Source: an uncultured Bacillota bacterium (GTDB taxonomy: Bacteria; Bacillota_I; Bacilli_A; RFN20; CAG-288). From it: a DNA stretch of 64,000 nt. Made by a program: the position numbers and the translations under genes. Location: NCBI GenBank assembly GCA_949284445.1, contig CASDVP010000003.1, positions 139,051-203,050 on the forward strand. Reading direction: 5' to 3'. The notes beneath the pieces are model-generated. The model was not told where the DNA came from and made no database searches. It worked only from the letters and a program-made list of their open reading frames with translations. This document shows positions 22,664 to 28,624 of this stretch, piece by piece. The first letter of the stretch is position 1; each line of letters opens with the position of its first letter.

Positions 22664-23539
22664 TTAATTAGCTTTTTCAGAATAGACGACAAAGTTGAAG
22701 ATATCTAACATCTGTGAGTTCATGCCGGCTTGGCTAGTGTAGTTGAGATCCCCGATAGCTCCGCAGATGACCTTAGTAGGTTTAGTCATATCATATTCTT
22801 TCACATCTTTGTCTTTGGTATAGAGAACAAAAGTAGGAGTTGGAATAGTTCCAGAGCCAGAAGGAGAAGTCAAATCCATTTCGAATGTTGATTCAGTGAC
22901 TTCAGATACTTTATGAGCTTCATCTTGGCTGAGATAGGTGTCTTTTATAGATTGCATAATCTCATTTTGCTGTTCAAGAGAGATATTGTCATTATCATAA
23001 TCATTAGCAGAACCTTCAGCCTCAGTAGATTTAGAACTATCGCCAGGAACGAAGCTGACATCGATAGTGAACAAACGTAATCTGTTATTGATTCCATCTT
23101 CGTTATTGAATTGATTGAACCAAGTTTCTACATAGCTTTGAATAGAAGAGCAGTTATCGCAGTTAGCTTTGACAAACATGACGACAAACCCTTCTAAATC
23201 TTCAGAAACTAACTCACTATAATCATCAGATAAGTTTGGATCAGTATCTTTAATACCAGTTCCGACAACACCATTTGCTCTAGAGGGGTCATCACCAGCG
23301 ATCATTTTCTCAAAATCATCGAAAGTGATCTCTTTAGATTCATAGAAATGTGAAGTGTTTTTGTTGACTAAGTCAGTGATACCTTGAACGATATAAGGAA
23401 TTGAAACAACGATACCAACAACTAAACCGACGATCAATAAAACTTGAAGCCAAGCAGCACTTTTGAACCATTCCCAAGCGGCGGTTGCCTTTACTTTAAA
23501 TTTACTATTTTCTTTTTTAACTTCGGTCGAGCTCATCAA
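22664..23539 (-). CDS. Membrane-anchored protein with a thioredoxin-like CxxC motif, hypothetical
   Basis: N-terminal TM helix (WLQVLLIVGLVVGIVVSIPYIV), then FVVMFVKANCDNCSS (beta-strand plus CxxC) and TPTFVLY (cis-Pro-loop-like). Acidic low-complexity insert. Confidence 0.35.
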   Translation of the reverse strand: MMSSTEVKKENSKFKVKATAAWEWFKSAAWLQVLLIVGLVVGIVVSIPYIVQGITDLVNKNTSHFYESKEITFDDFEKMIAGDDPSRANGVVGTGIKDTDPNLSDDYSELVSEDLEGFVVMFVKANCDNCSSIQSYVETWFNQFNNEDGINNRLRLFTIDVSFVPGDSSKSTEAEGSANDYDNDNISLEQQNEIMQSIKDTYLSQDEAHKVSEVTESTFEMDLTSPSGSGTIPTPTFVLYTKDKDVKEYDMTKPTKVICGAIGDLNYTSQAGMNSQMLDIFNFVVYSEKAN

Positions 23540-23584: not shown

Positions 23585-23658
23585 TGGTGCCCCGTGCCAG
23601 AATCGAACTAGCGATTGGTCCTTACCATGGACCCGTTATACCACTTAACTAACAGGGC
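23585..23658 (-). tRNA. tRNA-Thr (anticodon GGT), CCA encoded
   Basis: Minus strand GCCCTGTTAGTTAAGTGGTATAACGGGTCCATGGTAAGGACCAATCGCTAGTTCGATTCTGGCACGGGGCACCA. Anticodon stem GGTCC/GGACC with loop ATGGTAA, T-loop GTTCGATTC. Confidence 0.8.
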
Positions 23659-27155: not shown

Positions 27156-27358
27156 AATCAATAGAGCAATTTTCAATCATTATTTAAAGTGGAAGTTTTG
27201 AAATTAAATGTTTTTTGATGAATTCTAATTCATTTGAGAGTCAGAATATCCGACCAACTGTAAAAATAGAAAATCATTTAGCTATTCTTTAAAACGATTT
27301 CTATTCAATTAGAGGCTAAAAAAATACCAAACCTCAATAAGAGATTTGGTATCCTTAA

Positions 27359-27502
27359 TTAATCTAAAGCGTTTCCGCTAAAGATGGTTTCTATATAGCC
27401 ATTGATCAAGCCACGGAAGAATAAATCCTTGACTTGTGATTTGGCTTTTCTTTTGTTACTAAGATTTTTAGAATCTAAAACCTTATTCGAAAAGTTTTTC
27501 AT
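27359..27502 (-). CDS. Unannotated small protein (47 aa) with a complete expression cassette
   Basis: MKNFSNKVLDSKNLSNKRKAKSQVKDLFFRGLINGYIETIFSGNALD. An AGGAGGA RBS lies 7 nt upstream. A TTGAAA-17-TATACT promoter is at 27571..27599 on the minus strand. A rho-independent terminator (ATACCAAA..TTTGGTAT plus T7) lies 7 nt after the stop. Confidence 0.55.
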   Translation of the reverse strand: MKNFSNKVLDSKNLSNKRKAKSQVKDLFFRGLINGYIETIFSGNALD

Positions 27503-27570
27503 CTCGTAGTCCTCCTTTATAGATGTGCCATTCGTCTCGTCTCATATCAGCTCGAATAGAATGGAAAGTA

Positions 27571-27599
27571 AGTATAGTTAACAACTGCTCTTCTTTCAA
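27571..27599 (-). promoter_or_regulatory. Sigma-A type promoter (TTGAAA-17-TATACT) for the 47-aa small gene
   Basis: Read directly from the minus strand. Gives a leader of about 60 nt. Confidence 0.5.
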
Positions 27600-27898
27600 G
27601 TTAAAATTTATGAAAGCGGTTAACTTTTAAAAATCGAGCATAAATTAATAACCAAATGTTGTTTTCTTCAATAATATATGTGCTTTTTTGGAAGTTTAAA
27701 CTATATGTTGAGTTTCCATTTTAAAATATTCTTTAAAATTGGTAGGTAAATTCATAAAATCTCTAACAAAAACTAAACTTCAGCTATTCATTTATGGTAT
27801 TTAATAGAGTGAAAATTAACTTCTTCAAGCTTAATTAAGTTGAATAGTTTGTTTATTTTTGATAAAAAATAAATTGTATTCGAGGCTGAAAAGATAAC

Positions 27899-28624
27899 AT
27901 GAAAGAGACCGATGCTAAAGATGAGCAATTGAGCATTGATGAACAAAGAATGAAATTGCTCTTTGACACTCATACTATACAAATGCCTAAATTAAAAGGC
28001 TTAGTCATATACAAAGAAAAACCAGTTTATGATTTTTTTAAACGTTTTTTTGATATTTTTGTTTCTACAATATTCTTGATCTGTTTTTGTTGGTTATATT
28101 TGATCATCGCACTAGCCATCAAGATCTCCGATCGCGGCCCAGTCTTTTTTATTCAAACTCGTGTTGGTAAAAATGGTAAAAAATTTAAAATGTATAAATT
28201 CCGATCGATGGTTCCAAATGCTGATGTCAAAGTTGTAGAGCTCTTAGACAAAAACGAATCATCAGGTCCGCTATTCAAAATGAAAGACGACCCAAGAGTC
28301 ACTAAATTAGGTAAGTTTTTGCGCAAGACTTCATTAGATGAACTACCACAGCTTTTCAATGTCTTTCTCGGATCGATGTCTTTAGTAGGGCCTCGTCCAG
28401 CTTTACCAAGAGAAGTGACCCAGTACGATGAGGCTCAAACTGTTCGACTTTTAGTCAAACCGGGAATCACTTGTTTATGGCAGATATCTGGCCGTAGCAC
28501 CATCGGTTTTGATGGACAAGTTCAATTAGATAAAAGATATGTTGAAAAACGTAGCTTTTGGCTTGATATAAAGATTTTATTTTTGACCATCCCAGCTGTA
28601 TTTTCGCAAAAAGGAGCAGAATGA
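27899..28624 (+). CDS. Polyprenyl-phosphate sugar-1-phosphate transferase (bacterial sugar transferase, WbaP/CpsE C-terminal type)
   Basis: TM helix then PVFFIQTRVGKNGKKFKMYKFRSM ... DELPQLFNVFLGSMSLVGPRP, the conserved PF02397-type core. Confidence 0.8.
   Translation: MKETDAKDEQLSIDEQRMKLLFDTHTIQMPKLKGLVIYKEKPVYDFFKRFFDIFVSTIFLICFCWLYLIIALAIKISDRGPVFFIQTRVGKNGKKFKMYKFRSMVPNADVKVVELLDKNESSGPLFKMKDDPRVTKLGKFLRKTSLDELPQLFNVFLGSMSLVGPRPALPREVTQYDEAQTVRLLVKPGITCLWQISGRSTIGFDGQVQLDKRYVEKRSFWLDIKILFLTIPAVFSQKGAE

What the first reader, a model, noticed from the sequence alone, without database searches (positions are those of the whole stretch)
27317..27599. Unannotated 47-aa gene with textbook promoter, RBS and terminator
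TTGAAA-17-TATACT, a ~60-nt leader, AGGAGGA, then the ORF MKNFSNKVLDSKNLSNKRKAKSQVKDLFFRGLINGYIETIFSGNALD. A hairpin+T7 terminator lies 7 nt after the stop. The ORF is missed by the 60-aa cutoff. The product is basic at the N-terminus and hydrophobic/aromatic at the C-terminus. It could be a small regulatory protein or a secreted/processed signalling peptide. It sits between a DUF2130 gene and a surface-glycan gene cluster. Its function is unknown.
Basis: seen in the sequence. Interest (0 to 1): 0.5.

Follow-up and report, generated by a model that had tools for sequence, protein, structure and literature searches.

The report
Real orphan 47-residue protein gene
The 47-codon ORF is a genuine, separately transcribed small-protein gene of an uncultured gut-type Bacilli lineage; it has no known relatives or function, and it is almost identical in DNA between two otherwise well-diverged species, most likely because the allele was swapped between them fairly recently.

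Summary
These are TTGAAA-17-TATACT, a ~62-nt leader, AGGAGGA 7 nt before the ATG, the ORF at 27502-27359, and a strong hairpin+U7 terminator.

Three species carry the unit in the same place, divergent from a phosphoglycosyl-transferase gene. The most distant copy (43 aa, about 60% identical) differs the way coding sequence does:
- dN/dS is about 0.29.
- The internal indel is in frame.
- Only this one of six frames is open.

So it is a real protein gene. It matches nothing in Pfam, NCBIfam, PHROGs, PADLOC, PDB or Rfam. It has no signal peptide, transmembrane segment, GG leader or Cys, and no processing genes lie nearby. That argues against a secreted pheromone.

The leader has a conserved 5' stem and a nearly invariant stretch running into the ribosome-binding site.

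One oddity stands out. Between the window species and its nearest relative, positions 27362-27584 are 97-98% identical, against 79% across the 21 kb compared. dS is 0.08 here and 1.35 next door. Polymorphism data favour a recent inter-species allele replacement over RNA-level constraint.

Function is unknown. Interest is modest.

The parts
27608..27618 (-). Conserved motif CGCTTTCATAA just upstream of the -35 box. On the + strand it reads TTATGAAAGCG, which resembles a half-site of a cre/LacI-type operator. It is a candidate regulator-binding site or UP element.
   Evidence: It is present in all three species, while the rest of the intergenic DNA cannot be aligned. The regulator idea is inference only.
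27571..27599 (-). Sigma-70/SigA-type promoter: TTGAAA (27599-27594), 17-nt spacer, TATACT (27576-27571).
   Evidence: 10 of 12 matches. The same hexamers and spacing occur in L002 and L030 (TTGAAA-17-TATAAT, 11 of 12). The spacer sequence is not conserved.
27503..27565 (-). 5' untranslated leader. A stem near the 5' end pairs C(C/U)AUUCG (27564-27553 region) with (C/U)GAAUGG (27534-27528). The nearly invariant stretch CACAUCUAYAWAGGAGGACUAC follows and runs into the ribosome-binding site.
   Evidence: The stem is kept in L030 through two one-sided changes (U-G to C-G, G-C to G-U), although the enclosed loop grows from about 18 to about 58 nt. The pattern GAATGGCACATCTAYAWAGGAGG occurs once in the window, with 0 expected by chance.
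27510..27516 (-). Shine-Dalgarno sequence AGGAGGA, 7 nt upstream of the ATG.
   Evidence: It is identical in L002 and L030.
27359..27502 (-). 47-codon ORF including the stop codon. The product is basic (net charge +5). Its conserved core is VKD-x-FFRG-x4-Y-x-ETIF-x-GNA.
   Evidence: It is intact in all 17 strain assemblies of two species and in L030.
27318..27356 (-). Intrinsic terminator: a 12-16 bp hairpin followed by U7 (27324-27318).
   Evidence: -20.1 kcal/mol, z = -5.2. In species B, a C-G pair has become U-A through changes at 27349 and 27327, fixed in all 11 strains, and the loop sequence has also changed. L030 has a terminator in the same position whose stem sequence is only partly alignable.
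27362..27584 (.). A 223-bp tract that is nearly identical between species A (the window) and species B (L002 and its strains). It runs from 8 nt upstream of the -10 box to the last codon, and both edges are sharp.

Best explanation
The locus is a monocistronic gene for a 47-residue, basic, non-secreted protein of a previously undescribed family.

What is shown, by sequence and comparison:
- A SigA-type promoter.
- A roughly 62-nt leader whose 5' stem and pre-SD stretch are conserved.
- A strong Shine-Dalgarno sequence.
- An ORF under purifying selection on the protein.
- An intrinsic terminator.
- Conserved placement back-to-back with a phosphoglycosyl-transferase (Bac_transf) gene in three species.

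What is inferred:
- The 5' stem and strong SD make a stable, efficiently translated short mRNA. The conserved single-stranded stretch before the SD and the conserved motif upstream of the -35 box are where expression would be controlled.
- The protein acts in the cytoplasm by binding a larger partner through its conserved C-terminal half (VKDxFFRGxxxxYxETIFxGNA). The Lys-rich N-terminal half would contact an anionic surface such as nucleic acid or membrane.
- A link to the neighbouring glycosyl-phosphate transferase is possible, but it rests on gene order alone.

The near-identity of the 223-bp tract between two species is best read as an allele replacement well after the species split, not as selection on the RNA sequence.
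For: Anatomy.

Homologues in the same genomic position:
- L002 carries a copy identical at 46 of 47 residues.
- L030 carries a 43-aa copy, found by an exhaustive HMMER search at E = 1e-7.

Coding signature, window against L030:
- Amino-acid identity is 60%.
- Differences by codon position are 13/9/21.
- dN is 0.34, dS is 1.19 and omega is 0.29.
- The 9-nt indel is in frame, and only this frame of six is open.

The ORF is intact in all 17 assemblies of two species. The two within-species variants are one synonymous change (AAG to AAA) and one A20T change at a position that also varies in L030.

The promoter hexamers and a terminator are present in all three species, and the window and L002 terminator stems differ by a compensatory pair. 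The leader stem is kept around a loop of variable size.

Not secreted: no hydrophobic segment and no export, processing or receptor genes nearby.

Evidence for allele exchange rather than constraint:
- dS is 0.079 in the tract and 1.35 in the adjacent gene.
- 44 of 45 same-residue codons are identical, against 59% in neighbouring genes (P = 2e-9).
- The ORF is the extreme case among 5177 47-codon windows in 18 genes.
- The same synonymous sites, promoter spacer and hairpin loop are free to vary in L030.
- Polymorphic to fixed sites are 4:4 in the tract and 86:524 in the flanks (Fisher P = 0.018).
- Species B has normal diversity in the tract (4 sites against 6 expected). Species A has none (0 against 5.4 expected, P = 0.004).
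Against: - There is no expression or translation data of any kind.
- The family has only three species-level members, and only one comparison is informative about coding.
- The third-position excess is marginal on its own (about P = 0.07 by my own chi-square on the counts).
- The AlphaFold model, one long helix with pLDDT 78, rests on two sequences. The helical hydrophobic moment is no better than in shuffled sequences, so the structural picture is weak.
- Relatives whose transferase is 87%, 81%, 79% or 67-69% identical lack the small gene next to it. Any functional link to the transferase is therefore not obligatory.
- The tract's edges coincide with the promoter and the stop codon. That would also fit selection on the transcript.
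- The first 165 nt of the neighbouring transferase gene also have few synonymous changes, which the exchange model does not explain.
Confidence: 0.72

Rival explanations
1. Dual-function RNA. The roughly 245-nt transcript both encodes the peptide and acts as a riboregulator, or carries a structure whose sequence is selected. That selection would explain why synonymous sites are frozen between the two closest species.
For: - The tract 27363-27562 is the most conserved 200 nt in 21 kb of shared gene order (98%), above the tRNA-Thr region.
- Leader and ORF are equally conserved.
- The whole transcript folds better than shuffles (z = -5.5).
- The edges of the tract coincide with the transcription unit.
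- Species A has no polymorphism in it.
- Precedents exist in Bacillus: SR1/SR1P and SR7/SR7P (PMC5013986, PMC7834092).
Against: - In L030 the ORF's synonymous sites are as diverged as in neighbouring genes (56% identical codons against 46-53%).
- The in-ORF hairpins are largely broken in L030.
- Species B polymorphism in the tract is normal, although divergence is about ten-fold reduced (P = 0.005 under constant constraint).
- Complementarity to the adjacent transferase mRNA is no better than background. The best case is a 10-nt match (10.5% of random windows do as well), and it is lost in L002.
- No Rfam family matches.
Confidence: 0.15
2. Secreted or processed signalling peptide (pheromone or bacteriocin precursor), one of the options the first reader suggested.
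For: The size (43-47 aa) and cationic charge resemble those of some pheromone precursors and leaderless bacteriocins. This rests on my own knowledge.
Against: - No signal or transmembrane segment (highest Kyte-Doolittle mean 0.65).
- No GG/GA cleavage motif and no Cys.
- No match in NCBIfam, Pfam or PADLOC.
- No C39-peptidase ABC exporter, AgrB-like, Rgg/RRNPP or histidine-kinase gene within about 10 kb in any of the three species.
Confidence: 0.05
3. Purely non-coding small RNA, with the ORF incidental.
For: The same nucleotide-level conservation between species A and B as above.
Against: - A perfect SD at ideal spacing plus a 47-codon ORF arises in 0.12% of shuffles.
- The ORF, the in-frame indel and omega of 0.29 are kept in L030, while five other frames are closed.
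Confidence: 0.05
4. Chance ORF in an intergenic region; not a gene at all.
For: Promoter-like hexamers are no more frequent here than in shuffled sequence.
Against: The whole unit is conserved in three species inside intergenic DNA that otherwise cannot be aligned. The terminator shows a compensatory change. The shuffle test also argues against chance.
Confidence: 0.02

Closest known systems
Stand-alone small-protein genes of Firmicutes carried on short, sRNA-sized transcripts, for example B. subtilis SR1/SR1P (39 aa) and SR7/SR7P (39 aa) (PMC5013986, PMC7834092, PMC8152036)
   Same: A transcript of about 200-250 nt with its own promoter and intrinsic terminator. It has a strong SD and a 39-47 codon ORF for a soluble peptide that would act by binding a larger protein. 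The gene is conserved as a unit.
   Different: There is no sequence similarity. No base-pairing target was found. SR1P is Cys-rich, whereas this peptide has no Cys and is Lys-rich. A regulatory RNA function is not supported at deeper divergence.
5'-terminal stem-loop / SD 'stabiliser' leaders of Bacillus mRNAs, such as the aprE leader and cryIIIA STAB-SD (from my own knowledge)
   Same: A stem within a few nucleotides of the predicted 5' end, followed by a strong SD. In Bacillus this combination protects against 5'-end-dependent decay.
   Different: The transcription start is not mapped. The conserved single-stranded stretch CACAUCUAYAWA before the SD has no counterpart that I know of. Membership cannot be tested by sequence.
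Sm2 motif of Sm/LSm proteins (LSm2, PDB 6ppn chain B)
   Same: SQVKDLFFRGLINGYI against AAVKDLFIRGSVVRYV, 9 of 16 residues identical in the aligned stretch.
   Different: E = 0.13, so the match is not significant. There is no Sm1 motif. The peptide is too short for an Sm fold. AlphaFold predicts a helix. Pfam LSM does not match. I treat this as a coincidence or, at most, a lead.

Membership tests
Any curated protein family (Pfam-A, NCBIfam, PHROGs, PADLOC, PDB sequences) | A significant profile match | tested here: not met
   There are no families at E up to 1-10 in Pfam, NCBIfam or PADLOC. The best PHROG match has E = 0.16 and the best PDB match E = 0.13.
Any Rfam RNA family | A covariance-model match at or near the gathering score | tested here: not met
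   Nothing in the region reaches gathering score. With permissive filters the best E-value is 1.5, far below the gathering scores.
Dual-function sRNA (SR1 type) | A short, independently transcribed RNA with its own promoter and terminator | tested here: met
   This is sequence-level evidence only; no transcript data exist.
Dual-function sRNA (SR1 type) | A translated small ORF conserved as protein | tested here: met
   Omega is 0.29, the indel is in frame, and this is the only open frame in L030. Translation itself was not observed.
Dual-function sRNA (SR1 type) | A base-pairing region with conserved complementarity to a target mRNA | tested here: inconclusive
   Only the neighbouring transferase 5' region was tested. 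The best match is 10 nt, within background, and it is lost in L002. Genome-wide targets could not be searched.
Dual-function sRNA (SR1 type) | Nucleotide-level constraint beyond what coding requires, persisting across the family | tested here: not met
   It is seen between species A and B, but not against L030. The polymorphism-to-divergence ratio argues against constant constraint.
Secreted peptide pheromones and class II bacteriocin precursors (Phr, ComC, AgrD types) | An N-terminal Sec signal, a double-glycine leader, or an AgrD-type Cys/Ser core | tested here: not met
   The highest Kyte-Doolittle 19-residue mean is 0.65. The sequence has no GG and no Cys.
Secreted peptide pheromones and class II bacteriocin precursors (Phr, ComC, AgrD types) | An adjacent exporter, processing enzyme, receptor or immunity gene | tested here: not met
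   The neighbours are DUF2130, NFACT/RqcH, Bac_transf, a TPR membrane protein and GH88. In L030 they include a 271-aa protein with no recorded Pfam hit and DUF1848.
Type I toxin | A hydrophobic transmembrane peptide | tested here: not met
   The antisense-strand ORF (35 aa) is also interrupted by stops in L030.
Sm/LSm fold | Sm1 plus Sm2 motifs in a domain of about 70 residues | tested here: not met
   Only a weak Sm2-like stretch is present (E = 0.13). The peptide is 47 aa and the model is helical.

The most novel reading that the evidence does not exclude
The transcript is a dual-function RNA, or the peptide is under recent positive selection. On this reading, a 223-bp promoter-to-stop cassette has moved between two co-resident species (dS 1.35) and swept through one of them. 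That would make it a rare documented case of single-small-gene introgression driven by the small gene itself.
Probability: 0.2. Interest if true: 0.55.

Novelty: new member of a known kind. Interest (0 to 1): 0.3.

Why it matters
It adds a well-supported, previously undescribed small-protein family to an uncultured Bacilli lineage. Several gene callers skipped this gene, so it also shows that such genes are missed inconsistently. It is a clean example of how near-identical relatives can mislead. The closest relative suggested 'RNA, not protein', and only a more distant homologue revealed the coding signature. The sharp 223-bp low-divergence island gives a concrete, testable case of very short inter-species allele replacement in gut-type bacteria. 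Without a function or a wide distribution, the biological impact is limited.

Tried and rejected
- Known RNA gene (6S, SRP or similar): no Rfam match. The fold is a string of local hairpins, not a 6S-like rod.
- Small RNA pairing with the 5' end of the divergent transferase mRNA: an unrestricted duplex energy was uninformative (-55 against a background mean of -63). The longest complementary stretch is 10 nt, within background, and it is not conserved.
- Mobile or phage origin: no match in viral contigs by leader pattern or by peptide.
- More family members:
  - The word-indexed protein search found only the gene itself.
  - The profile search found only P0001 and P0002.
  - The metagenome scans found nothing. 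The peptide patterns gave no relative, and a degenerate FFRGLINGY pattern gave 23 chance hits inside unrelated proteins.
  - Loci next to transferase relatives P0006, P0007, P0008, P0010, P0011 and P0013 lack the gene.
  - More distant DUF2130 loci (L003, L004, L006) lack it too.
- Amphipathic-helix or membrane-surface peptide: the hydrophobic moment is no better than in shuffles.
- Overlapping antisense coding as the cause of frozen synonymous sites: the antisense frames are closed in L030.
- Assembly artefact as the cause of near-identity: four differences are fixed consistently across 6 and 11 independent assemblies.

Full report
**1. What is there.**
Everything lies on the minus strand.
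- The -35 box TTGAAA is at 27599-27594. A 17-nt spacer separates it from the -10 box TATACT at 27576-27571.
- The leader is about 62 nt.
- AGGAGGA sits at 27516-27510, 7 nt before the ATG at 27502.
- The 47-codon ORF ends with TAA at 27361-27359.
- A hairpin at 27356-27320 with a U7 run (27324-27318) folds at -20.1 kcal/mol, z = -5.2. The simple terminator scan missed it.

Promoter-like hexamers alone are not above chance. The combination is.
- An ATG ORF of at least 47 codons with an SD-like 5-mer occurs in 0.12% of dinucleotide shuffles of the transcript.
- It is the only ATG ORF of 25-70 codons in the 64-kb window with AGGAGG 4-9 nt upstream.

The neighbours are a convergent DUF2130 gene and a divergent Bac_transf phosphoglycosyl transferase. 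What follows the transferase is not a classical glycan cluster. It consists of a TPR membrane protein, an unassigned membrane protein and a convergent GH88 gene.

**2. No known family.**
The peptide matches nothing in Pfam, NCBIfam, PHROGs or PADLOC. The region matches no Rfam family, at gathering score or with permissive filters. A PDB profile search gives only a non-significant resemblance to the Sm2 motif of LSm2 (E = 0.13).

**3. Relatives.**
- The 5.8-billion-cluster protein index holds only the peptide itself. It comes from a Logan contig that is 99.6% identical to the window.
- A genome scan with the DUF2130 neighbour found an uncultured Bacilli MAG (L002; DUF2130 73% identical). It carries a 47-aa ORF in the same position that is identical at 46 of 47 residues. 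More distant DUF2130 loci have no copy nearby.
- The exhaustive HMMER search of 1.84 billion representatives found one more member. P0002 is 43 aa, 60-62% identical, with E = 1e-7. It lies in L030 in the same arrangement: Bac_transf divergent, then the small gene, then an extra 271-aa gene, DUF2130 and NFACT.
- Nothing further turned up. The searches were a profile search, two metagenome scans, two viral scans, and six loci next to transferase relatives of 67-87% identity.

As far as public data show, the family exists in three species and is not always coupled to the transferase.

**4. Is it coding?**
The closest relative is misleading. Window and L002 are 79% identical over 21 kb of shared gene order, yet 27363-27562 is 98% identical. 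That is the most conserved 200 nt in the region, above the tRNA-Thr stretch.
- In neighbouring genes, 59% of same-residue codons are identical. In the small ORF the figure is 44 of 45 (P = 2e-9).
- Among 5177 47-codon windows in 18 genes, none has fewer than 5 changed codons. The small ORF has 2.
- dS is 0.079, against 1.35 in the transferase gene.

Taken alone, this looks like an RNA gene.

L030 settles the question.
- Amino-acid identity is 60%, and differences by codon position are 13/9/21.
- 56% of same-residue codons are identical, which is no more than in neighbouring genes.
- dN is 0.34, dS is 1.19 and omega is 0.29.
- The 9-nt indel is in frame, and stops occur in all five other frames.

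The ORF is also intact in 17 assemblies of the two close species. I conclude that it is a protein-coding gene (about 0.85-0.9).

**5. Regulatory anatomy that is conserved at depth.**
- The promoter hexamers and the 17-nt spacing are kept in all three species, while the spacer sequence is free.
- A motif, CGCTTTCATAA, just upstream of the -35 box is kept in all three species within otherwise unalignable DNA. Its complement, TGAAAGCG, looks like a cre/LacI-type half-site. That reading is only a lead.
- In the leader, a stem pairs C(C/U)AUUCG with (C/U)GAAUGG. It is kept while its loop grows from about 18 to about 58 nt. The 22 nt running through the SD (CACAUCUAYAWAGGAGGACUAC) are nearly invariant.
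- Each species has a strong terminator. Between species A and B the stem shows a fixed compensatory C-G to U-A change, and the loop sequence differs.

My inference is a stable, well-translated short mRNA whose expression is controlled at the promoter-proximal motif, the pre-SD stretch, or both.

**6. The product.**
- Net charge is +5.
- There is no hydrophobic segment: the highest Kyte-Doolittle 19-residue mean is 0.65.
- There is no Cys and no GG motif.
- The invariant positions cluster in the C-terminal half, as VKD-x-FFRG-x4-Y-x-ETIF-x-GNA.
- AlphaFold, run on a two-sequence alignment, gives a single helix with pLDDT 78. That is weak evidence, and the helical hydrophobic moment is no better than in shuffles.

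A secreted or processed pheromone is therefore disfavoured. A cytoplasmic partner-binding small protein is the most economical reading. The partner is unknown.

**7. Why are species A and B nearly identical here?**
I fetched 5 further assemblies of the window's species (A; one of them is the Logan contig already held as L001) and 11 assemblies of the L002 species (B, one of them the L002 contig itself). The near-identical tract runs from 27584 to 27362.
- Upstream, 8 of the next 9 aligned positions differ (27585-27593, all but 27588).
- Downstream, the terminator is about 78% identical.

In the leader plus ORF (208 nt) there are 4 fixed differences, 4 polymorphic sites in B and none in A. The flanks have 86 sites polymorphic in B and 524 fixed differences (Fisher P = 0.018).
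- If the low divergence reflected constant constraint, B should have about 0.7 polymorphic sites and not 4 (P = 0.005).
- B's diversity is normal (4 against 6 expected).
- A's diversity is absent (0 against 5.4 expected, P = 0.004).

The sites that are frozen between A and B are free to vary in L030. Both species occur in the same sample series.

The best reading is an allele replacement between the lineages well after they split (tract dS of about 0.08), possibly followed by a sweep in A. I put this at about 0.6-0.65. The coincidence of the tract's edges with the gene is expected under that reading. The gene is an island of homology in unalignable spacers, so crossovers must resolve inside it.

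The alternative is RNA-level selection specific to this clade, meaning a dual-function RNA. It is not excluded (about 0.15-0.2). I found no conserved complementarity to the adjacent transferase mRNA.

**8. Verdict.**
It is a new orphan member of a familiar class, the stand-alone small ORF on an sRNA-sized transcript. Its distribution is narrow and its function unknown. The short inter-species low-divergence island is a mildly interesting extra. Interest: 0.3.

Noticed in passing
window 27899-28063 (+), the first 55 codons of the Bac_transf gene: Synonymous divergence from L002 is strongly reduced here. The first 55 codons have 6 synonymous changes and 2 replacements, while about half of the codons change in the rest of the gene. 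This is the second most extreme 47-codon window in the 21 kb compared. Within-species polymorphism is normal. It could be a second short exchange tract or an RNA-level feature at the 5' end of the mRNA.
   Followed up: partly
window 27578-27607 (+): A promoter-like site, TTAACA-18-TAAAAT (10 of 12 matches), lies back-to-back with the small gene's promoter, overlaps it, and points toward Bac_transf. If used, it would give that gene a leader of about 290 nt. A similar site seems to be present in L002, but none is obvious in L030.
   Followed up: partly
window 22664-23536 (-), next to tRNA-Thr at 23585-23658: This 290-aa ORF has no Pfam match. Its synonymous divergence from L002 is unusually low: 73% of same-residue codons are identical, against about 59% in other genes. 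Several of the lowest 47-codon windows fall in it.
   Followed up: no
window 44275-44672 (+): This is a tmRNA gene (Rfam score 111.9 bits). ARAGORN reads its tag peptide as ANKPVMFRAPAMMAAACC, an unusual ending compared with the common ...ALAA. I did not check whether the reading frame was mispredicted.
   Followed up: no
L040-L053 compared with L001/L055 and L030: Gene calling is inconsistent. The small ORF was called on the Logan contig and in NCBI assembly GCA_964427595.1, but not in any of the ENA or NCBI assemblies of the other strains, although it is intact in all of them.
   Followed up: yes
L035 and L036 (Bac_transf 87% identical), L031-L034 (81%), L056 (79%): Close transferase relatives have different upstream neighbours and no small gene. 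The upstream neighbours are a 361-aa ORF, a ferredoxin gene with a tRNA-like stretch between it and the transferase, and an unrelated ORF. The pairing of small gene and transferase is therefore lineage-restricted.
   Followed up: yes
peptide residues 22-37: There is a weak resemblance to the Sm2 motif of LSm2: VKDLFFRGLINGYI against VKDLFIRGSVVRYV (E = 0.13). Two very large proteins, P0003 (997 aa) and P0004 (7356 aa, 5 matched stretches), also hit the C-terminal half weakly. They are probably repeat proteins, and I did not examine them.
   Followed up: no
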